Assembly: GCA_003345595.1 (NCBI GenBank)
Contig: PRDI01000049.1
Location: 29,780 to 93,779 of the forward strand
Reading direction: 5' to 3'
Source: Candidatus Thorarchaeota archaeon
Lineage (GTDB): Archaea; Asgardarchaeota; Thorarchaeia; Thorarchaeales; Thorarchaeaceae
DNA: 64,000 nucleotides
Below the pieces are notes generated by a model. The model was not told the origin of the DNA. It searched no databases and was given only the letters and a program-made list of their open reading frames with translations. Shown in pieces: positions 3,913 through 36,150 of this stretch. Positions within the stretch are counted from its first letter, which is position 1. Every line of letters begins with the position of its first letter. Position numbers and translations under genes: made by a program.

Positions 3913-4119
3913 CTATGGACCGAATAGCTGGGTGAGACTACTCCAGCTGTCTTGGAGTAGCTGAAGCAGACTGTTCACAACACCTTGTGCCCATCCTGTT
4001 GCTTCAAGGATGACTGCTATTATGATGGATACTGTGACCACAGCTAGACCAAGAAGCAGGCTCTCCTCTACCAAGGGTCCTCCAATCTCATTGTCTTTCA
4101 GCTTAGTCTGCTTCGTCAT
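3913..4119 (-). CDS. Flp/type IV pilin-like small protein with class III signal peptide
   Basis: MTKQTKLKDNEIG|GPLVEESLLLGLAVVTVSIIIAVI: basic leader, Gly at -1, Glu at +5, hydrophobic helix. Own TATA-like element (4152-4161). Adjacent to a secretion ATPase. Confidence 0.65.
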   Translation of the reverse strand: MTKQTKLKDNEIGGPLVEESLLLGLAVVTVSIIIAVILEATGWAQGVVNSLLQLLQDSWSSLTQLFGP

Positions 4120-4280
4120 TTCATGAACCTGTCCAAGGGTTCTCTTCGAGGCTATATTAAGTCCCCATGTTCTTGACGCGGTAATAGCACATCTCTCAGC
4201 AGAGCTCAACATACTCTATCAGGACGTCCAGCACGCCAAAGACTGGCCAACCGTGTGCAAGAACGACATTCGATGCTCTC

Positions 4281-6041
4281 TTAGCCCCGATACAGAAACG
4301 GATGACCATTCTTCCATAGCCTCTCCCCCATGAACATGGTAATGTCCATTTCAGACCCGCCAATCTCGTTTTCAAGTTCATGAAGTAGCCTCTCGTAGGC
4401 GGGCACATGACTTTGAATCCCTTGTTCCCGGGAATGAAGCATGAATGCTCCATCCTCAGCCCACTTCGGGATTCCAGACTTAGCCGGCTGATTCGATAAG
4501 ACTACGTTCAGCCCGGCGAATCTCAGCAGGCCATCGACAACCTGTCTTCTCACTTCAACAACCTCTTTGACTCGTCGTGTGGCATTTCCAGGTGTGGGCC
4601 GCTCCATAGTGATTATGAGGTCTATGAGTGCGACACTCGATTTATCAATGCCATGATCTGATGTCCAGCGAGAAATGAGACTCGATGCAGAATCACTGTG
4701 ACAGGTCTGTATTGTATGAAGACCCGCCGCAATTGCCTGAAACAAAGCACGGCTGTGTTCTGCTGTCTGAATCTCTCCAAGAATCAGATAATCAGGTGAC
4801 CTGTGAAGGCTTTTTACGATCTCCTTGCTCTTGTCGAATCCGGGCTCGTTCTCGTCAACTGGATCGACCCTGATTCTTACTTGGTGACACCCTTTGATAG
4901 ACCTACTTTCGACGGCATCTTCGATGTAGACTCTTCTCCAGCTTCGCGGCGTAGTCATATCAAGAGCATTCAGCAGAGTAGTCTTCCCGGATCCCGGACC
5001 ACCTGTTATCGTAATGTTGAACCTAGCAGACACGGCAAGCAACAGTATCGCCGCAGCCTCCATACTGAGCGTGCCATTGCGAACCAAGTCCGTTATCGAA
5101 TATGGGCTCCTACGGGCCCTACGCATCTCAAGATGTAGTCCGTCTGGGCTCAAGGGTGGCAGGCTCAGAGAGAATCTCAGAACTGCATCACAGACCAACA
5201 TCTCTGTCTTGAGCGATGGGTTTCTCCGATCGAGATGGAAATTGCTCTCGGCCCTCACGAGCGTGACGATACGATCAACATCATGCTCATTGACGGTCGT
5301 TGTTGAACAACACCTTCCGAAACGTCGATGGTCAAAGTAAATCTGACTCTCGGGCCGGTCTAGGTAAACCTCCTCGACTTCGTCATCGAGCAGAATTGGA
5401 AGGAAGCATCTGAGGGCTGTTGATCGATGTGCTACGATTTCTGCGATTCTAGTCCTAGTGATAATGCCTACCTCTGGCAGTGAGTGCGAGATCTTCGCTG
5501 CAACAGATTCAGAGATTCGCCTGAGTCTTATGTTGATGTTTTCTCTGGACAAATGCGGTGCATCATCGAACAGACTCCTGTCGGCACTCAATTCATTCAG
5601 CAATGCCATCTCTAGACGAGTCTTAACTAGCGGGACCGTTTCAAGAAGCAGACCTGAACTGGAGCCATCTTCACGGAAGACTGACAGGTAAGGCCCAACA
5701 AGATATGCTTCAGATAACAGATGAACCGTGTCAAAGAAACGCTGGTCCTCAACGTAGACCGATTCCCAACCCTCCGCATGCCATGGCGGTCCGTTGAGCG
5801 GTTTTCCATCATGTCTTCCAAGATGAATCAGGCCCTTCCCAGGTTCGACTACTAGAATCTTAGTCTTTTGCCCGTCATCAGAACTCGTCAAGGCTAACCG
5901 TTTACATGGCCCCTGCTCTGCATATTCACACTCTGTGCACCCTGTCTTGGGGCATAGGATAACATTGACCAAGTGTTCTATCACACCAATCGGACTCCAC
6001 AGCATCAGATGCGGGCCGGATTCACAAGCCAGAAGCTGCAA
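4281..6041 (-). CDS. Type II/IV secretion system ATPase (CpaF/TadA/VirB11/FlaI family)
   Basis: Walker A GGPGSGKTT, Asp box YIEDAVE, Walker B ILGEIQ, His box QTCHSDS, upstream motif 'LDDEVEEVY'. Confidence 0.9.
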   Translation of the reverse strand: MQLLACESGPHLMLWSPIGVIEHLVNVILCPKTGCTECEYAEQGPCKRLALTSSDDGQKTKILVVEPGKGLIHLGRHDGKPLNGPPWHAEGWESVYVEDQRFFDTVHLLSEAYLVGPYLSVFREDGSSSGLLLETVPLVKTRLEMALLNELSADRSLFDDAPHLSRENINIRLRRISESVAAKISHSLPEVGIITRTRIAEIVAHRSTALRCFLPILLDDEVEEVYLDRPESQIYFDHRRFGRCCSTTTVNEHDVDRIVTLVRAESNFHLDRRNPSLKTEMLVCDAVLRFSLSLPPLSPDGLHLEMRRARRSPYSITDLVRNGTLSMEAAAILLLAVSARFNITITGGPGSGKTTLLNALDMTTPRSWRRVYIEDAVESRSIKGCHQVRIRVDPVDENEPGFDKSKEIVKSLHRSPDYLILGEIQTAEHSRALFQAIAAGLHTIQTCHSDSASSLISRWTSDHGIDKSSVALIDLIITMERPTPGNATRRVKEVVEVRRQVVDGLLRFAGLNVVLSNQPAKSGIPKWAEDGAFMLHSREQGIQSHVPAYERLLHELENEIGGSEMDITMFMGERLWKNGHPFLYRG

Positions 6042-28856: not shown

Positions 28857-29161
28857 TATCACGTCTTCAGTTTCCTAGGGTGAAGAGGCACCAAGCATTT
28901 ACCTGTGTACAGTGCTCAGTTGGGACGCGAATCATCTTACACTCTGTCAGCTGGACATATTCTGGTTCAGGAATGTCCGTCCTCCTAGAAGCAGAACTTA
29001 GGCTCTACTGCTTCATGTCAGTCAGGGATCGATTCGGGGACTGAATCGGTCACGAGTCGCTTGGGCCTGTATTCCGGAGAGCATGACACTATCCATTCTG
29101 TAGGCAGTTGTCAGGCACTCTCTTTTGGAGGATGAACCTGAAACCCTGTGCTGTGTGGTGA

Positions 29162-29169
29162 TTATATAG
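29162..29169 (+). promoter_or_regulatory. TATA box of the roadblock-GTPase operon
   Basis: TTATATAG about 30 nt upstream of the start, consistent with a leaderless or short-leader mRNA. Confidence 0.6.
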
Positions 29170-29197
29170 TGTACGTCAGGAATCAACCTTGAACTGA

Positions 29198-30160
29198 TTG
29201 ATGTGGGATCGTACGGTGATCGAAGGCCTCAATGAAACCCTCCAGAACATCAAGGCAATCTCTGGAGTTGAGAATGTTGTTCTCATTCAGAAAGACGGCC
29301 TTCCGGTCGCCAGTGCAGGTGTGTGGTTCAGCAAGGAGGAGGTCTTTGCAGTAGCTTCCTCCTCGTGTGCAATATTTGGGGTTGCCAAACTCATTCACAG
29401 CGGCTTCAATTATCTGCTGATGGAATCAGACACTTCCAAGGTCTTCCTAGCATCATTACCCAACGATCCGGACTACTTTCTCGCAGTCACCACAGCACCC
29501 AGAGTCAATCTTGCAGCACTTTTCATTGAAATGAAGGGCTCTCTGTCACGGGTGTCGTTTCTACTGAAGCAAGAGGCAGAGAAACGTCTTCCACCACTTC
29601 GTTCCTATGATGCCGAGGAAACTCGGCAGGTATTATCCGGGTTCTCGGTTGCAGAGGGTGGTAGTACATCCTATGCTGCCAACCGCTCAATCATATCACT
29701 AGACCGGTCTCAAGCCATGGCGCTTAGGAGCATTCTACGGCAAGTCCACGACAGCGTCAGCGAGATCGAGTCCGTCTTCCTAGCGTTGAGTGGAGGTGTG
29801 CGTGTGTCTCTTGATGGATTCACAAACGACAGAATGGCTGCCATGTCATTTGCCCTGTATGATGCATCAGAAAGGGTCGTGAAGACTCTTCGAAACAGTT
29901 CTCTTGAGAATGTGTTATGTGAAACGGATCGCATTAGACACTTCATCTACGCGGTGCCGAATGGGGTGTTTAGTCTCTGGGTTGATCGGACCAGTCAGAA
30001 GCTGGGGCTGATTAGGCTGCTATTGAAGCACTACATAGACGAAACTCGAAGGGTGCTGGCTTCTGCCTCCATGGTGAAACCCACTGTTCCTGAAGACCTC
30101 AGGGAACTGCTCATGTCCGGCACTTCCGGAGGTCTTGTTCTTGCGAGGCGAAACCAGTGA
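29198..30160 (+). CDS. Tandem roadblock/LC7 (MglB-like) domain protein
   Basis: Domain 1: ISGVENVVLIQKDGLPVAS...VNLAALFIEMK. Domain 2: VSEIESVFLALSGGVRVS...MAAMSFALY...KLGLIRLLL. Confidence 0.85.
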   Translation: MMWDRTVIEGLNETLQNIKAISGVENVVLIQKDGLPVASAGVWFSKEEVFAVASSSCAIFGVAKLIHSGFNYLLMESDTSKVFLASLPNDPDYFLAVTTAPRVNLAALFIEMKGSLSRVSFLLKQEAEKRLPPLRSYDAEETRQVLSGFSVAEGGSTSYAANRSIISLDRSQAMALRSILRQVHDSVSEIESVFLALSGGVRVSLDGFTNDRMAAMSFALYDASERVVKTLRNSSLENVLCETDRIRHFIYAVPNGVFSLWVDRTSQKLGLIRLLLKHYIDETRRVLASASMVKPTVPEDLRELLMSGTSGGLVLARRNQ

Positions 30161-31077
30161 CTTACTCAATCATGCAGATGATAGAGCTGGCGAGCACTGG
30201 CTTTCCATTGCTCTTGAACTCGGTACTGGGTCGAATACCCATCTTGGTGGCGGGGGAGGACACCGAACTAGTGGATGACCTCACGGAGAGTCTGACAATG
30301 CTGTGTCCGCACCGTCACAAGTTTGTCTTCTGGCGTGATTTCACTTCCGAGGCGGAAATCCGGTCAGTATGGGACGAGGAGCGGCATGACTACGAAGTGA
30401 ACCGCACCGTCGTGTGCTGTCTCTCGACTAATCTGACGCTGGCTCTCGATCGGATTACACAGTTCATGGGGTGGATAGTATCAATACCCTTGAGCGCTGA
30501 CGTTCTCGGACTTCACGTGACGGAGGAAACTCTTGTGAAGGCGGCGGCGCACATCCTGCGGACTTCAGGCAACTGTGGCATACTGAGAGTCACATCACCA
30601 TCTGCAATCAGCTTTTCGCTTGTCAAGCCAGGTCTGCCTTGTCTGGACGTCGAGAAGAGAATTGTCAGCAAGATTCTCAGCCGAAAGACACAGTCTCTTG
30701 AGCGGATTCGGCGTCTGCTCAAGAAGTCACTGCGTGATCTGAATGTTTCCGAGCAGATAGCTGATGAAGTCCTGAAGCTTGATGACGACTCCGAGAAACT
30801 GACACATGATATGTTCGAGGAAGAGGTCAACAGCTACGTTCACGCTGCTCGCAGGGCTGTGATGATTCTATCCCGCATAAGACTGGCTCGACAGCTTGGA
30901 GCATCCATCACGCTTACCGACCGGAATCTCTACGAGGCCATCGGGTGGGAAACTGGAGAGATGCCTGAGCTGGTCCGCTTCATCAGAGGAGAGTGGCATG
31001 AAGACTTCTCCGACTGTGTCAAGGGCGGTGCTCTTTCCGGGTTGGGAGCTTGGGTTGACAGCATGTGGGGAACATAG
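30157..31077 (+). CDS. Hypothetical protein, N-terminal region DENN/folliculin-C-like
   Basis: LLNSVLGRIPILVAGEDTELVDDLTESLTMLCP has the helix-strand-helix-Pro pattern of the DENN core. Its start overlaps the upstream stop (GTGA). The ORF is solid; the family is tentative. Confidence 0.55.
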   Translation: MTYSIMQMIELASTGFPLLLNSVLGRIPILVAGEDTELVDDLTESLTMLCPHRHKFVFWRDFTSEAEIRSVWDEERHDYEVNRTVVCCLSTNLTLALDRITQFMGWIVSIPLSADVLGLHVTEETLVKAAAHILRTSGNCGILRVTSPSAISFSLVKPGLPCLDVEKRIVSKILSRKTQSLERIRRLLKKSLRDLNVSEQIADEVLKLDDDSEKLTHDMFEEEVNSYVHAARRAVMILSRIRLARQLGASITLTDRNLYEAIGWETGEMPELVRFIRGEWHEDFSDCVKGGALSGLGAWVDSMWGT

Positions 31078-31093
31078 GAGGGTCGAGAGCAAG

Positions 31094-31675
31094 ATGATAA
31101 TCGACTACGGCAGCCGAACAGTTGGTGTCAAGATTGTGTTCTTTGGCCCTGCAATGAGTGGAAAAACCACCTCGATAAGGTGGTTATTCTCGAAGTTTGA
31201 GTGTGCAGACTGTCTTACATCAATCGAGAACACGGCTGGCAGAACGATGTTTTGTGACTTCGGTACTATTCCATTCTTACTGGGCAATAACTGGACGCTT
31301 AGTGCTCACATTTGGTCTGCAACTGGGCAGGACTTCTATAGGTCGACAAGAGAGGTCGTCCTAGTGGGTGCTGATGGTGTGATATTCGTTGCAGACTCAC
31401 AAGAACACCTCCTGAAGGAGAATCTTGCAAGCTGGAATGAGTTGATGACGATGATGGCTGGCGAAGAACGGCCTCTTCCGGTTGTAGTCTGTCTCAACAA
31501 ACAAGACCTTCTTGGGGCGGTTTCGGAGGATGCAATCAGGTCTTACCTTAGACTCCCCTCGTCAGTCCCAGTCTTCAGAAGCATAGCAAAGGAAGGGTTC
31601 AATATTGTAGAGGCATTCTCCCTTCTGTTCCAAGATGCCATACGCACAAGTATCCTCGCTCCTTCCTTACTGTGA
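31094..31675 (+). CDS. Small GTPase, MglA-like
   Basis: KIVFFGPAMSGKTT, GRTMFCDF, atypical G3 SATGQ, GADGVIFVADSQ, NKQD. GGAGG Shine-Dalgarno (SD) site before ATG 31094. Confidence 0.9.
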   Translation: MIIDYGSRTVGVKIVFFGPAMSGKTTSIRWLFSKFECADCLTSIENTAGRTMFCDFGTIPFLLGNNWTLSAHIWSATGQDFYRSTREVVLVGADGVIFVADSQEHLLKENLASWNELMTMMAGEERPLPVVVCLNKQDLLGAVSEDAIRSYLRLPSSVPVFRSIAKEGFNIVEAFSLLFQDAIRTSILAPSLL

Positions 31676-31795
31676 GAACACAAGCAGTCGGAAACCGTCC
31701 GTGTCAAGCGGATAGCTTTTTACGACCTCGGACAACTGACACAGTATGGGGTTTCCTCCAGACCCAAACCGTCCATCATGTCGAGGGGTTCCGCC

Positions 31796-33472
31796 ATGAA
31801 GTCTGACAATAATAGCACAAGGTTCGTATTTGTAACAGGAGGAGTTCTATCTGGCATCGGAAAGGGTGTGACCACCGCATCGATAGCGAAGATACTACAG
31901 TTTCGAGGGTACAAGATCCAAATCGTGAAGATTGATCCCTACCTCAACATCGACCCCGGAACTCTCAATCCCATTGAACACGGCGAGGTGTTTGTGACTG
32001 ATCAGACGTGGGTGTTTAGACCCGCAAATGATACCGAGTTCAGAATCACCGAGGTTGATCAGGACTTTGGCACCTATGAGCGATTCATAGGGATGAGTGT
32101 CCATCCATCTCAGAACATAACCTCAGGGCAGATTTACCTCTCTGTCATTCTAGAAGAAAGAAAGGGCAGTTTCTTGGGCAAGACAGTACAAATAATCCCT
32201 CACGTCACTGACTGTATCAAGCGGCGAATCTGGGAAGTTGCCAATAGGGAACCAAGACCAGATGTGCTGCTAGTAGAGGTTGGAGGCACAGTCGGTGACA
32301 TTGAGGCCATGCCTTTCTTGGAGGCCGTACGACAGCTATCAAGAGAGGTGGGTCGAGAGAGGGCTGCTCTAGTCCACGTGACCCTTGTGCCATATTTCGC
32401 TGCCGTAGGCGAATTCAAGACAAAACCAACACAGCACAGTGTTCGTGCTCTTCAAGGTCTGGGACTCCAGCCAGACATCATTGTGTGCAGAGCTGAACAG
32501 AATCTTCCCGATTCTGCGCGAAGGAAGATTGCTCTATTCTGCAACGTCCCCGAGGAGAGAGTCATCTCTAATCCCGATATCCCAGTAGTCTATCAGCTGC
32601 CACTGTCGTTTGAGGACCAAGGTCTGGGCGAAACGCTGGTTAGTTTCTTTGGACTCGAGCCCCATGTGCCTGAAACAGACTCATGGCGCGAAACTGTGAA
32701 AGCGCTCGAAATACACTCCGAAACTGTGACTATTGCGATGCCTGGGAAGTATACAATTCTTAGCGACTCGTACAAGAGCATCAACGAGGCTTTAGCCCAT
32801 GCAGGGGCACAATGTAGTGTGAAGGTCAGAATAGAGTGCATTGATACCGAATCAAAATGTGAAGAAGACTGCCTACGTAAGGAGTTCGCTGATATTGATG
32901 GAGTGCTTTTGACTCCAGGTTTTGGATCGCGCGGAGTCGAGGGAATGATTAATGCAGCGGCGGTGACATTCGAAGACGACATTCCGTTCCTCGGCATCTG
33001 CTATGGTGGCCAACTTGGGACAGTGGCCTTCGCTAGGAAGCGAATGGGCTGGCAAGGAGCGAACACTACAGAGGTGGACCCGGACAGTCTCTACCCAGTC
33101 GTCGACCTGATGGACGACCAGAGGACGACAGATGAGAAGGGCGGGACAATGAGGGTCGGCGGGCAAGAGGTCCGGATTGTTGAGGGCAGTCGGCTTCACA
33201 GCATCTATGGACTGACTGAAACAAGAGAGAGATTCAGACACAGGTTTCACCTCATTGAGAGATACGTTCACCGCATGGGAAGTGAGGGGATGGCAATATC
33301 CGCATATGACCCAACGGGGAAGATAATCAACGCAGTCGAGTTGAGGAACCATCCATTCTGGATAGGAGTGCAGTATCATCCCGAGTTCAGGTCTAGGCCG
33401 GATAGTGCACACCCGCTCTATGTTGCCTTTCTGAGGGCCGCCTTAGAACACAAGCACAAGAGGGAAACCTAG
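31796..33472 (+). CDS. pyrG: CTP synthase
   Basis: [43 protein letters not shown]. Confidence 0.97.
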
Positions 33473-34632
33473 TGGAACAGAGCCTCGACAAGATGCTTTC
33501 CACCCTTGTCGAAGAAATCGAGAGAGTCCAGTCAACTCGTGAGCGTTTTGGTGGGGTTCTGAAACGGATAAAGAGCAACATAGACCTTCGACGTTTTCCC
33601 GCAGTGACAACGAATACCGTAGACACTAGCTTTGTAACACGAATACAGCCAACGACCCTATCAGGTCTCAGGATAGTAGGCATCGATGGAGGACTAGTTC
33701 GGAGAAGCTTCAGATCGATGGACTTGGTCCTCACACGTGGTATTGCAGTTGTGTTTCAGTTCGGCCCGAAGGAGGGGCCCTCTGTAGACTTCTTTCCGAG
33801 TCCATTTCCAAGTCCTACAGTGAAACCAATCATGCTCACGCTTTCCGGACCGGAACTGGATCAGTTTGCGTCGTTAGAGAGAATGGCTACCGAACTGAGA
33901 GTGACATTGTCAGTACTCGATGAGTTCCACGCGGATCTGATTCTTGTTGATGGCAGCCTGTTCTACCACCCGCGCGATCGTCCACCCAGCGGGTCTGCCA
34001 CGAATGACAAGTTTCAGGAAGTCTTAGCACTCTACAGGCAGATGTATCGCAAGGTCAACGAGAAAGGAACAACTCTGGTTGGCATTGTCAAGGACAGTCG
34101 TTCAACCCGCGTTGCCACTATATTGGGCGACATCTTACCACATCTCATGAGAGATCCATCAGTCTTCGAAATGATGCAGGGTGTCGACTATCGGTGGTTG
34201 CTCAAAATCTCAAGAGACTGTGACATCTTGGACACCTTCTTGGAGGAGGGCGAGAGGACTTTCGCATTCAAGTACTCCTCGGAACTGCAGCAGAATCTCA
34301 ACTCTTTTCCTGAGGATCTATCACCGTGGGCCTCAAGGATTTGGGTGACATATCTTAAGACCGCACGAGAGGATCTGCCACTGAGGATTGAGGTTCTGGC
34401 AAGAGGAGATGACGACGATGTCAAGTCCCTTGACAAGGCACTATCTGCCATAATGCCACTATCATCGCAACATGATGAATATGGTATTCCGACACCAATA
34501 GTAGAGGCAGATGCCCGGGCGAGGATCAGCAACAATGAATCACAGCTCATTGTAGATCGATTGATGGCGCTCTCTGGTCTGACCTACACAGCACTCGAAA
34601 AGAGGCGGTCTAGGAATCCCTTTGGAGGCTGA
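33472..34632 (+). CDS. nurA: DNA double-strand break repair nuclease NurA
   Basis: GIDGG, LVDGSL, GIVKDS, YGIPTPIVEADARARI; next to herA. Confidence 0.88.
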   Translation: MEQSLDKMLSTLVEEIERVQSTRERFGGVLKRIKSNIDLRRFPAVTTNTVDTSFVTRIQPTTLSGLRIVGIDGGLVRRSFRSMDLVLTRGIAVVFQFGPKEGPSVDFFPSPFPSPTVKPIMLTLSGPELDQFASLERMATELRVTLSVLDEFHADLILVDGSLFYHPRDRPPSGSATNDKFQEVLALYRQMYRKVNEKGTTLVGIVKDSRSTRVATILGDILPHLMRDPSVFEMMQGVDYRWLLKISRDCDILDTFLEEGERTFAFKYSSELQQNLNSFPEDLSPWASRIWVTYLKTAREDLPLRIEVLARGDDDDVKSLDKALSAIMPLSSQHDEYGIPTPIVEADARARISNNESQLIVDRLMALSGLTYTALEKRRSRNPFGG

Positions 34633-34638
34633 GATCTG

Positions 34639-36150
34639 ATGGTATACCCTGAAGACGCCCGACTTGGCACGGTCGTCTGTACAGAGTCCACACCGAATGT
34701 GCTTGAGTTTGCATTCGTGGTTGAGGGGGCTGCAGATGAGATCACAGTGCGACGTGGTGAGTTCGTGTCAGTGATGACAGAGAGTGTCACGGTTATAGCA
34801 AGGGTTCAGGATCTTGTTCGGACTAATCGGTACTATGAGCATGCAGAGGCGGTGAGAGAGTATCAGTCAAGGGGGGAGCCACTTCGATCGATTCTTCCCA
34901 CCGATCGCTGGCAGTATACTATCGCAAATGCGCGCGTATTAGGCTTCTGGGATAAGGGCAGGGTTGTACGTCCCTACTTCTCAGTCCCACCGGGAGCCCC
35001 AGTGAGAAGGACCGAAGAACAGGTCCTTGCTCGGTTCTTGAAGCTGGAAACTGAGAACGGACTCAGACTGGGCAGATTGTCCCATCATGAGCTTGAGTTC
35101 ACACCATCAATCGATCGTTTACTCTCGAAGCACTTAGCTATCCTTGCGATGAGCGGTGCCGGGAAGTCTTACTTCGTATCAGTTCTACTGGAGGAAATTC
35201 TTTCGCGCACCAAAGAACAGGGAAGACTTGCTGTGGTAGTCTTGGACGTACATGGCGAGTATACGTACCTGAAAGACGCTACCGCTGGCCAATTGGGCGT
35301 CTCCGATGGTGAGATTGAGATCGAGCACATCCGTGGTTCACACTTTCAGATACCAGTACCATCGCTGTCTGCTGAAGGATTGAGTACCTTTGTTTCTGAC
35401 ATGAGTGGGATTCAGATACGTGACCTACGGCGAGTAATATCGGAAGCACGGAAGAGGTCAAAGGAGCGCTACACACTCAGTGACCTTGCGGAGCTGGTTC
35501 GGGGCGATGACAGTATCAACAAGAACACCAAAGAAGCCATTGTCAGTTGGCTCATCAACCTAGATGAAACTGGTCTGTTTGGCATAGAAGCTGTACCCGA
35601 TTTGAGCAGCATCATGAGTCCCGGAAAGCTGACTCTAATCGACCTTAGTGACTTCATCAGTCTCAAGAAGAAGCAGATTGTCACATCCTACCTTGCAAGT
35701 GAGCTTCTCTTTCTTAGAAGGCAACAGAGAATACCCCCATTCCTCCTAGTCATAGAAGAGGCACATCAGTTTTGTCCCGAGGGTCGTCATGAACTGGCGA
35801 TTCCAAGGGAGCAAATCGAGACGATTGCTCGAGAAGGACGTAAGTTCTTTGCCCTACTGTGTCTAGTTTCTCAACGGCCTGTAAAGCTGTCAACGACGGT
35901 GCTAAGCCAGTGTAGCAATCAGGCTGTCTTCAGGTGTACGAACCCGTACGATCTTGAACACATCGGAAAGAGCAGTGAGGGAATTGACCGGTCTTCACTA
36001 GACTCCATAACCACACTCGAAGTCGGAGAAGCCCTTTTTGTCGGAGAAGTGGTCACTGTACCAACCTTTGTCAGAATTCGTCGCAGGAAGATTGAGCCTA
36101 CCGGAGTCATTGGAAGTCTTTCTGAAGCCATCAGGAGGACAGACAAGTAG
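34639..36150 (+). CDS. herA: HerA helicase/translocase (HAS barrel + ATPase)
   Basis: KHLAILAMSGAGKS, DVHGEY, IEEAHQF, AREGRKF, SQRP. Confidence 0.9.
   Translation: MVYPEDARLGTVVCTESTPNVLEFAFVVEGAADEITVRRGEFVSVMTESVTVIARVQDLVRTNRYYEHAEAVREYQSRGEPLRSILPTDRWQYTIANARVLGFWDKGRVVRPYFSVPPGAPVRRTEEQVLARFLKLETENGLRLGRLSHHELEFTPSIDRLLSKHLAILAMSGAGKSYFVSVLLEEILSRTKEQGRLAVVVLDVHGEYTYLKDATAGQLGVSDGEIEIEHIRGSHFQIPVPSLSAEGLSTFVSDMSGIQIRDLRRVISEARKRSKERYTLSDLAELVRGDDSINKNTKEAIVSWLINLDETGLFGIEAVPDLSSIMSPGKLTLIDLSDFISLKKKQIVTSYLASELLFLRRQQRIPPFLLVIEEAHQFCPEGRHELAIPREQIETIAREGRKFFALLCLVSQRPVKLSTTVLSQCSNQAVFRCTNPYDLEHIGKSSEGIDRSSLDSITTLEVGEALFVGEVVTVPTFVRIRRRKIEPTGVIGSLSEAIRRTDK

What the first reader, a model, noticed from the sequence alone, without database searches (positions are those of the whole stretch)
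29198..31675. Operon of tandem-roadblock + DENN/folliculin-like protein + MglA-type GTPase: a possible GAP-GEF-GTPase signalling module
Seen: three tightly coupled genes behind one TATA box. The GTPase has the MglA signature (intrinsic Arg in GRT, G3 lacking Asp, GQ), and the first gene fuses two roadblock domains. Known: MglB acts on MglA as a roadblock homodimer GAP, eukaryotic Ragulator/Rag use roadblock heterodimers, and DENN-fold proteins (folliculin, SMCR8) regulate small GTPases. Inference: the fusion is a single-chain pseudo-heterodimer, and the middle gene, whose N-terminus resembles the folliculin/DENN core by eye, is a dedicated regulator. That would make a prokaryotic module intermediate between MglAB and Rag-Ragulator-FLCN. 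The DENN assignment is the weak link.
Basis: partly seen in the sequence, partly recalled or inferred. Interest (0 to 1): 0.8.

Follow-up and report, generated by a model that had tools for sequence, protein, structure and literature searches.

The report
Asgard roadblock–DENN–MglA GTPase operon

Summary
Three tightly packed genes lie behind one conserved TATA element.
- g1 (29201-30160) has two complete roadblock domains.
- g2 (30157-31077) has no Pfam hit. It folds with high confidence (pLDDT 88.7) into an alpha/beta domain plus a helical domain. Its best structural matches are the cDENN+dDENN parts of DENND10, folliculin, SMCR8, C9orf72 and DENND1A (Z 9.7-13.8), and they span both domains.
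- g3 (31094-31675) is an MglA-family GTPase. Its profile scores 155 bits against MglA and 56 bits against the next-best chains, which include Rab11. The switch-I Arg, the Asp-less G3 motif and the catalytic Gln are invariant.

The order g1-g2-g3 is kept in every canonical locus examined, from at least 12 Asgard families. g1 and g2 are present and absent in the same families across 400 Asgard genomes.

The "weak link" (DENN) is therefore supported. It is not new: Liu et al. (bioRxiv 2020, later Nature 2021) described an operon "conserved in most Asgard archaea" with a roadblock protein, a small GTPase and a DENN protein, and proposed an FLCN-like GEF role.

This analysis refines three points. 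The GTPase is MglA-type rather than Rab-like. The roadblock protein is a tandem whose N-terminal half carries the invariant motif. A divergent variant consists of paired DENN-like genes with no roadblock gene or GTPase beside them. Physical binding and GAP or GEF roles remain inferred.

The parts
29151..29170 (+). Promoter: BRE-like GTGGTG plus the TATA box GATTATATAG, about 32 nt upstream of the g1 ATG, so the transcript is near-leaderless
   Evidence: Sequence. The block CTGTGTGGTG[A/G]TTATATAGT is conserved upstream of g1 in other Thorarchaeota genera (L005, L021, L034).
29201..30160 (+). g1: tandem roadblock protein (319 aa). Roadblock domain 1 is about residues 4-123 and domain 2 about 169-287, joined by a PPLR-containing linker.
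   Evidence: Pfam Robl_LC7 in two stretches. AF2 pLDDT 82, pTM 0.80, with two full roadblock topologies. Foldseek matches Thor and MK-D1 roadblocks, MglB and LAMTOR2 at E 1e-5 to 4e-4. The invariant motif GVENVV..Q.DG.P....GVW lies in domain 1 only.
30157..31077 (+). g2: DENN-fold protein (306 aa). A cDENN-like alpha/beta domain covers about residues 1-160 and a helical dDENN-like domain about 164-290. It has no longin/uDENN domain.
   Evidence: AF2 pLDDT 88.7, pTM 0.85. VIA-align: DENND10 Z 13.8, FLCN 12.8, SMCR8 11.1, C9orf72 10.9, DENND1A 9.7, each spanning model residues 1 to about 285. Foldseek top hits are FLCN with probability 0.97-0.99. Pfam Folliculin_C is hit by 2 of 39 family members, best E 4.8e-4.
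31077..31081 (+). GGAGG ribosome-binding site for g3, overlapping the g2 stop codon
31094..31675 (+). g3: MglA-family small GTPase (193 aa). It has the P-loop GPAMSGKT, switch-I GRT (Arg50), G3 SATGQ (no Asp; Gln79) and NKQD.
   Evidence: phmmer against PDB: MglA 1.4e-26, Rab7 1e-8. Family profile: MglA 1.4e-44 at 155 bits, next hit 56 bits. Invariant residues are listed.
31697..31722 (+). Hairpin followed by a T-run, the likely end of the transcript

Best explanation
This is the Thorarchaeota copy of a three-gene operon that is conserved, mostly as a single copy, in most Asgard lineages.

Shown:
- The operon encodes an MglA-family GTPase that carries its own catalytic Arg and Gln.
- It encodes a single-chain tandem roadblock protein.
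- It encodes a protein with the cDENN+dDENN fold of folliculin, DENND10 and C9orf72-SMCR8, but without the N-terminal longin domain.

Inferred:
- The tandem roadblock acts like the MglB homodimer, which binds one MglA per dimer. As a covalent pseudo-dimer it would bind one GTPase molecule and reposition the intrinsic Arg and Gln, giving GAP-type activation or a binding platform.
- The DENN-fold protein docks on the roadblock protein, so the two together form a split counterpart of the eukaryotic longin+DENN module.
- That second component would control nucleotide exchange or the lifetime of the GTP state, acting as a GEF or co-regulator.

The outcome would be a self-contained GTPase switch with two dedicated regulators. 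Its downstream output is unknown.
For: Gene structure and coupling.

MglA identity.

Tandem roadblock.

DENN fold.

Synteny: g1-g2-g3 appears in the same order, with overlaps or gaps under 70 nt, in 46 of the 47 loci tested by tblastn; the exception is L003, a paired DENN-like variant. ORF boundaries were checked in 19 of them. The loci include families f1, f2, f3, f5, f6, f14, f18 (two copies), f19, f21, f22, f23 and f29.

Phyletic pattern: g2 is in 231 of 400 and g1 in 232 of 400 Asgard species genomes, with the same family-level presence and absence.

Conservation: g1 and g2 are 70-80% identical across Thorarchaeota.

Prior independent prediction of the same module: Liu et al., 10.1101/2020.10.19.343400.

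Established knowledge: an MglB dimer binds one MglA and activates it without supplying catalytic residues (Miertzschke 2011, as cited). DENN modules contact their GTPases through the longin, DENN and d-DENN domains (Zhang et al. 2012).
Against: - No sequence-level match of the window's g2 to any DENN or folliculin model: none in Pfam at E<=1, and none among PDB sequences with the family profile.
- Foldseek E-values are weak (7e-3) and TM-scores low (0.3-0.5).
- The cDENN domain also resembles minimal P-loop NTPase domains (Z up to 10).
- g2 has no longin domain, and the neighbouring domains are roadblock rather than longin.
- Eukaryotic DENN clients are Rab, Arf or Rag GTPases, not MglA.
- Which protein is the GAP and which the GEF is pure inference.
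- A divergent branch of the g2 family lacks the roadblock and GTPase neighbours.
Confidence: 0.7

Rival explanations
1. The roles are swapped relative to the MglB analogy. The tandem roadblock would be the exchange or anchoring platform, as in Ragulator, Mon1-Ccz1 and the TRAPP longin/roadblock GEFs. The DENN-fold protein would belong to the GAP side, as in FLCN-FNIP2 and C9orf72-SMCR8.
For: Whole-length Foldseek hits of g1 to subunit chains of Mon1-Ccz1 GEF complexes (E 3e-6 to 1e-5). The best g2 matches include FLCN and SMCR8, which are subunits of GAP complexes.
Against: In FLCN and SMCR8 the catalytic Arg sits in the longin domain, which g2 lacks. g3 carries its own Arg finger, so a roadblock dimer suffices as GAP in the MglA/MglB system. 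The Mon1-Ccz1 alignments have rmsd of 18-19 Å.
Confidence: 0.15
2. g2 is not a regulator. It would be an effector or scaffold that reads out the GTP state of g3, with g1 as the only regulator.
For: A 2026 study reports that RomRX, long taken to be the MglA GEF, behaves as an effector that binds MglA-GTP (PMC13408092 abstract). A branch of the g2 family occurs without a GTPase neighbour.
Against: Strict synteny and identical family-level distribution with g1. DENN modules with a known activity are GEFs or parts of GAP complexes.
Confidence: 0.1
3. g2 is a degenerate P-loop NTPase-like protein (RecA, PilT or AAA+ type core plus a helical lid), and its likeness to DENN is only a shared generic arrangement.
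For: Many P-loop ATPases match residues 1-159 at Z 7-10. Foldseek lists AAA+ chains at similar E-values.
Against: The P-loop matches cover only the N-terminal domain, whereas the DENN matches cover both domains and rank first in two independent aligners. There is no Walker A or B motif in the family alignment: the conserved b1-loop is R.P[IV]..G....VD. Two family members hit Pfam Folliculin_C. The cDENN fold is itself described as a minimal P-loop-like topology without nucleotide-binding residues.
Confidence: 0.05

Closest known systems
Asgard 'DENN operon' of Liu et al. 2020/2021 (bioRxiv 10.1101/2020.10.19.343400, section 10 and Fig. 5b)
   Same: Same composition (a roadblock-superfamily protein, a small GTPase and a DENN-domain protein). 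Same distribution ('conserved in most Asgard archaea'). Same functional idea (an FLCN-like regulator of the GTPase).
   Different: They label the roadblock protein 'LAMTOR1-like' and the GTPase 'Rab-like'. Here the roadblock protein is a tandem of two full roadblock domains and the GTPase is MglA-family by about 100 bits. Identity of the two operons is inferred from the text, because the figure and tables are not held.
MglA-MglB of Myxococcus xanthus and Thermus thermophilus
   Same: The GTPase has the intrinsic switch-I Arg, an Asp-less G3 motif and the catalytic Gln. Its partner has the roadblock fold. The genes are adjacent.
   Different: The roadblock partner is one chain with two unequal domains rather than a homodimer. 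A third, DENN-fold gene sits between the two. The host is an archaeon.
FLCN-FNIP2 with Rag-Ragulator (lysosomal folliculin complex)
   Same: The DENN fold of g2 superposes on the FLCN C-terminal domain (Z 12.8, 188 residues). Roadblock domains and a small GTPase are part of the same system.
   Different: g2 has no longin domain and no DENN-DENN heterodimer partner in this operon. The GTPase has no C-terminal roadblock domain and is not Rag-type. There is no LAMTOR1-like wrapping subunit.
DENND1B-Rab35 and DENND10 (classical DENN modules)
   Same: A cDENN alpha/beta sandwich followed by a helical dDENN domain. DENND10 is the best structural match (Z 13.8).
   Different: In eukaryotes a uDENN/longin domain is fused to the N-terminus and the clients are Rabs. 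Here the roadblock/longin-superfamily part is a separate upstream gene and the client is MglA-type.
C9orf72-SMCR8 (CSW) Arf GAP complex
   Same: The DENN fold matches both subunits (Z 10.9 and 11.1).
   Different: GAP activity there depends on a longin-domain Arg finger and a GP motif. g2 has no longin domain, and the GTPase has its own Arg finger.

Membership tests
MglA family of small GTPases | Ras-like G domain with P-loop GxxxxGK[ST] and NKxD | tested here: met
   GPAMSGKT and NKQD are present, and both motifs are conserved in 18 orthologues with the G, K, N and D positions invariant
MglA family of small GTPases | Intrinsic arginine in switch I (Mx MglA Arg53) and catalytic Gln in G3 | tested here: met
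   G49-R50-T51 aligns with the D-R-T of solved MglA. R50 and Q79 are invariant.
MglA family of small GTPases | G3 motif lacks the Asp of DxxGQ | tested here: met
   SATGQ aligns with TVPGQ of MglA. No orthologue has Asp at that position.
MglA family of small GTPases | Closer in sequence to MglA than to Rab, Arf or Rag | tested here: met
   The family profile scores 155 bits against MglA and at most 56 bits against any other solved GTPase
Roadblock/LC7 (MglB-like) domain | Pfam PF03259 match above the gathering score | tested here: met
   35.7 bits against a cut-off of 23, in two stretches. Each half scored alone falls below the cut-off (22.7 and 17.3 bits).
Roadblock/LC7 (MglB-like) domain | a-b-b-a-b-b-b(-a) fold, dimerising into a continuous sheet | tested here: met
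   The topology appears twice in the AF2 model. Foldseek gives TM 0.68-0.86, normalised to the target, against MglB, LAMTOR2 and Asgard roadblocks. Intramolecular pseudo-dimer packing is suggested by pTM 0.80 but the coordinates were not inspected.
DENN module (DENND, FLCN/FNIP, C9orf72/SMCR8) | cDENN alpha/beta three-layer sandwich followed by an all-helical dDENN domain | tested here: met
   VIA-align Z 9.7-13.8 to five DENN proteins over model residues 1 to about 285. The Foldseek top hits are FLCN.
DENN module (DENND, FLCN/FNIP, C9orf72/SMCR8) | N-terminal longin (uDENN) domain in the same polypeptide | tested here: not met
   g2 begins directly with the cDENN-like domain. The only roadblock/longin-superfamily domains are in the separate upstream gene and have roadblock, not longin, topology.
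DENN module (DENND, FLCN/FNIP, C9orf72/SMCR8) | Sequence-profile match to Pfam DENN (PF02141) or Folliculin_C (PF16692) | tested here: inconclusive
   The window protein has no hit at E<=1. Two of 39 family members hit Folliculin_C (best E 4.8e-4) and one hits DENN at E 0.093. The family profile finds no DENN chain among PDB sequences.
DENN module (DENND, FLCN/FNIP, C9orf72/SMCR8) | GEF or GAP-complex activity on a small GTPase | not testable with these tools
   Needs nucleotide-exchange and GTPase assays
Rag-Ragulator | GTPase with a C-terminal roadblock domain forming heterodimers, plus five LAMTOR subunits including the non-roadblock LAMTOR1 | tested here: not met
   g3 is 193 aa, a G domain only. 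Pfam Gtr1_RagA gives only 23.8 bits, below the Arf, Roc and Ras scores. No further subunits are in the operon.

The most novel reading that the evidence does not exclude
The most novel reading not excluded is this. The ancestral client of the DENN fold was an MglA-type GTPase. The eukaryotic longin+DENN module (FLCN, C9orf72, DENND) arose by fusing a roadblock/longin regulator with a free-standing cDENN-dDENN protein like g2, and this operon preserves the unfused three-part state. The paired DENN-like genes seen in a divergent branch would then be a prokaryotic counterpart of the FLCN-FNIP type DENN-DENN heterodimer.
Probability: 0.3. Interest if true: 0.7.

Novelty: already known. Interest (0 to 1): 0.35.

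Why it matters
DENN and folliculin-type regulators control Rab, Arf and Rag GTPases in eukaryotic membrane traffic and nutrient sensing, and their origin is part of the eukaryogenesis question.

This operon is one of the few places where an Asgard small GTPase sits beside its presumed regulators. Tran et al. 2024 note that such pairings are generally not in operons. It is therefore a tractable system for testing what a DENN fold did before eukaryotes existed.

The link was already pointed out by Liu et al. What is added here:
- The GTPase is MglA-type.
- The roadblock partner is a tandem of unequal domains.
- g1 and g2 show the same family-level presence and absence.

All three sharpen the experiment that should be done.

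Tried and rejected
- Complex prediction on g1+g3+g2, with g2 as the scored partner, gave no verdict (ipSAE 0.12 and 0.02, mark 0.32). It counts neither for nor against binding.
- The g2 family profile against PDB sequences gave only chance-level ferritin hits and no DENN chain.
- Pfam and NCBIfam on the window's g2 gave nothing meaningful.
- The search for related loci with alignment A1 failed because no stretch was conserved enough. With P0184 it found no relatives.
- Searching 400 Asgard genomes with P0184, to find the host of the paired DENN variant, only re-found the canonical copies at 27% identity or less.
- Rfam on the 340-bp upstream gap gave no hit.
- The published Nature version of Liu et al. 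is not held and the preprint's supplements are not held. That their operon is this one therefore rests on the text description.
- One search aligned the window with itself (L004 is the same DNA) and carries no information.
- The sigma-70 promoter scan does not apply to an archaeon and its promoter hits were ignored.
Full report
**What is there**

The window comes from an Asgard archaeon of the Thorarchaeota. Homologues of both g1 and g2 are named "Candidatus Thorarchaeota archaeon" by their sources.

Three + strand genes are packed together:
- g1 runs 29201-30160.
- g2 runs 30157-31077. Its GTG start overlaps the g1 stop as GTGA.
- g3 runs 31094-31675. It starts 12 nt after a GGAGG that overlaps the g2 stop.

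The TATA element GATTATATAG at 29160-29169 lies about 32 nt before the g1 ATG. It belongs to a 20-nt block, CTGTGTGGTG[A/G]TTATATAGT, that recurs upstream of g1 in other Thorarchaeota genera. A hairpin and T-run follow g3.

**The GTPase (g3)**

phmmer against solved structures gives MglA at E 1.4e-26 and the best Rab at 1e-8.

A profile of 18 orthologues from the syntenic loci scores 155 bits on MglA. The next solved GTPases score 56 bits: a DNAJC27 G domain, a Thorarchaeota Rab and Rab11.

In the alignment to solved MglA, GRT aligns with the DRT that holds the intrinsic Arg finger, and SATGQ aligns with TVPGQ, so the G3 Asp is missing. G49, R50, T51, T77, G78, Q79, N135, K136 and D138 are invariant across Asgard orthologues.

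All defining MglA features tested are met. The label "Rab-like" used in the literature for this operon's GTPase is imprecise.

The same genome holds three further MglA-like paralogues at 140-154 bits. At least two of them sit beside stand-alone roadblock genes. The operon's GTPase, at 278 bits, is therefore a distinct orthologous group.

**The roadblock protein (g1)**

Pfam Robl_LC7 matches in two stretches.

An AF2 model built on 23 orthologues (pLDDT 82, pTM 0.80) shows two complete a-b-b-a-b-b-b-a roadblock domains, at residues 4-123 and 169-287.

Foldseek matches single domains to Asgard roadblocks, MglB, LAMTOR2 and MP1-p14 (E 1e-5 to 4e-4, target-normalised TM 0.68-0.86). It matches the whole length loosely to subunit chains of Mon1-Ccz1 complexes.

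The strongly conserved motif GVENVV..Q.DG.P....GVW lies in domain 1 only. Domain 2 is much more variable. That is what would be expected of a pseudo-heterodimer with unequal halves.

**The middle protein (g2)**

It has no Pfam or NCBIfam family. The family is small: 67 clusters at 50% identity in a library of 1.8 billion proteins. Within Thorarchaeota it is about 70% identical at a fixed length of 306 aa.

With a 39-sequence alignment, AF2 gives pLDDT 88.7 and pTM 0.85. The model has a Rossmann-like alpha/beta domain (about residues 1-160) and a helical domain (164-290).

Foldseek against the PDB puts folliculin first (6ulg_L, 3v42, 8dhb_J; probability 0.97-0.99). C9orf72-SMCR8, DENND1A and DENND1B follow. 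The E-values are only about 1e-2 and TM-scores 0.3-0.5.

The independent all-against-representatives VIA-align search ranks these matches, all spanning model residues 1 to about 285:

| Match | Z | Notes |
|---|---|---|
| DENND10 | 13.8 | 187 residues aligned, chain 157-357 |
| FLCN C-terminal domain | 12.8 | 188 residues aligned, chain 345-558 |
| SMCR8 | 11.1 | |
| C9orf72 | 10.9 | |
| DENND1A | 9.7 | |

P-loop ATPases (RuvB-like, GspE, PilT) reach Z of at most 10 and, with few exceptions, align to the N-terminal domain only.

That pattern fits the published description of cDENN as a minimal P-loop-like topology without nucleotide-binding residues (Zhang et al. 2012). The family has no Walker motifs; its conserved b1 element is R.P[IV]..G....VD.

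There is a faint sequence signal: 2 of 39 family members hit Pfam Folliculin_C (best E 4.8e-4) and one hits DENN at 0.093.

The longin/uDENN domain that defines a complete DENN module is absent from g2, so g2 is a cDENN-dDENN protein and not a full DENN module.

**Conservation**

With the g2 profile, 231 of 400 Asgard species genomes have a match, including 66 of the 90 high-quality genomes, and mostly as one copy.

With the g1 profile at E<=1e-30, 232 of 400 have a match.

At family level the two patterns are identical:
- Both are present in f1-f3, f5, f6, f14, f17-f19, f21-f23 and f29.
- Both are absent from f4, f7-f13, f15, f16, f20, f24-f28 and f30.
- The absences include well-sampled families: f8 0/31, f11 0/22, f10 0/12 and f13 0/12.

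tblastn of the three window proteins finds g1-g2-g3 in the same order in 46 of the 47 loci it matched. Two of these are cut at a contig end, and the exception is L003, the paired DENN-like variant. ORF boundaries checked in 19 of them show overlaps or short gaps. The loci include distant ones in which g2 is only 21-31% identical. Two genomes of family f18 have a second copy of g1 and g2. In one of them, G126, both copies are complete three-gene operons (L048, L049).

The refutation criterion "not conserved with the other two genes" is not met.

**Prior art**

Liu et al. [quoted passage not shown] They call it a strong candidate GEF analogous to FLCN.

Composition and distribution fit the operon studied here. 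I judge it about 85-90% likely to be the same operon. The figure and tables that would prove it are not held.

DENN domains are now routinely listed among Asgard eukaryotic signature genes. I found no paper in the held library that reports biochemistry on this operon.

**Mechanism**

Shown:
- The identities and folds of the three proteins.
- Their coupling in one tightly packed gene cluster.
- The co-inheritance of g1 and g2.

Inferred:
- In MglA-MglB, one MglA binds an MglB dimer, and MglB activates hydrolysis by repositioning MglA's own Arg and Gln. The tandem roadblock is therefore best read as a covalent MglB-like pseudo-dimer for g3.
- Eukaryotic DENN modules use longin, cDENN and dDENN together to grip a GTPase. 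The pair g1+g2 is therefore best read as a split counterpart of that module, with g2 controlling exchange or stabilising one nucleotide state.

Alternatives: the roles may be swapped, g2 may be an effector, or g2 may be a degenerate NTPase-like protein. These are listed with their tests. The complex prediction gave no verdict and is not used.

**Verdict**

It is an instance of an operon already described in the literature. This analysis adds three refinements: the GTPase is MglA-type, the roadblock partner is a tandem of unequal domains, and g1 and g2 share one phyletic pattern. It also adds one new side observation, the paired DENN-like genes. Interest is moderate to low as a discovery. It is higher as an experimental opportunity, because the module remains uncharacterised.

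Noticed in passing
L003:3052-3966 and 4001-4936; L052:1126-2052 and 2055-2744; L051:2-679 and 682-1521: A divergent branch of the g2 family occurs as two adjacent paralogous DENN-like genes (hhalign against A1: probability 99.9, E 7e-32 to 7e-37). In L003 there is no roadblock gene or GTPase beside them. The arrangement recalls the FLCN-FNIP and C9orf72-SMCR8 DENN-DENN heterodimers. The host organism was not identified and is not among the 400 sampled Asgard species genomes.
   Followed up: partly
G000 contigs C105:11920-13471, C7:431-1286 and C86 (own genome, outside the window): The same genome has three more MglA-like GTPase genes (140-154 bits against the operon profile). At least two lie next to stand-alone roadblock genes, as in classical MglB/MglA-type pairs. 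The C105 and C7 GTPases score identically and may be an assembly duplicate.
   Followed up: no
L048 and L049 (genome G126, contigs C131 and C135); second g1 and g2 matches also in G127: Genome G126 of family f18 carries two complete copies of the three-gene operon. Against the window proteins the two copies score much alike: 34% (g1), 28-29% (g2) and 44-47% (g3) identity. G127, of the same family, also has two matches to g1 and to g2. This indicates a lineage-specific duplication of the whole module.
   Followed up: no
Asgard families f8 (0/31), f10 (0/12), f11 (0/22), f13 (0/12) and others: Both g1 and g2 are missing from whole, well-sampled Asgard families. Several of those genomes are over 90% complete or closed. 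The families are unnamed in the tool, so it is unknown whether these are the lineages reported to carry fused longin-DENN (FLCN-like) proteins.
   Followed up: partly
window 28857-29150: About 300 bp between the upstream HD-domain-like gene and the operon promoter contain no ORF of note and no Rfam match (E<=1).
   Followed up: partly
window 31778-36150: Directly downstream lies a gene that looks by eye like CTP synthase (pyrG). None of this was checked with tools here.
   Followed up: no
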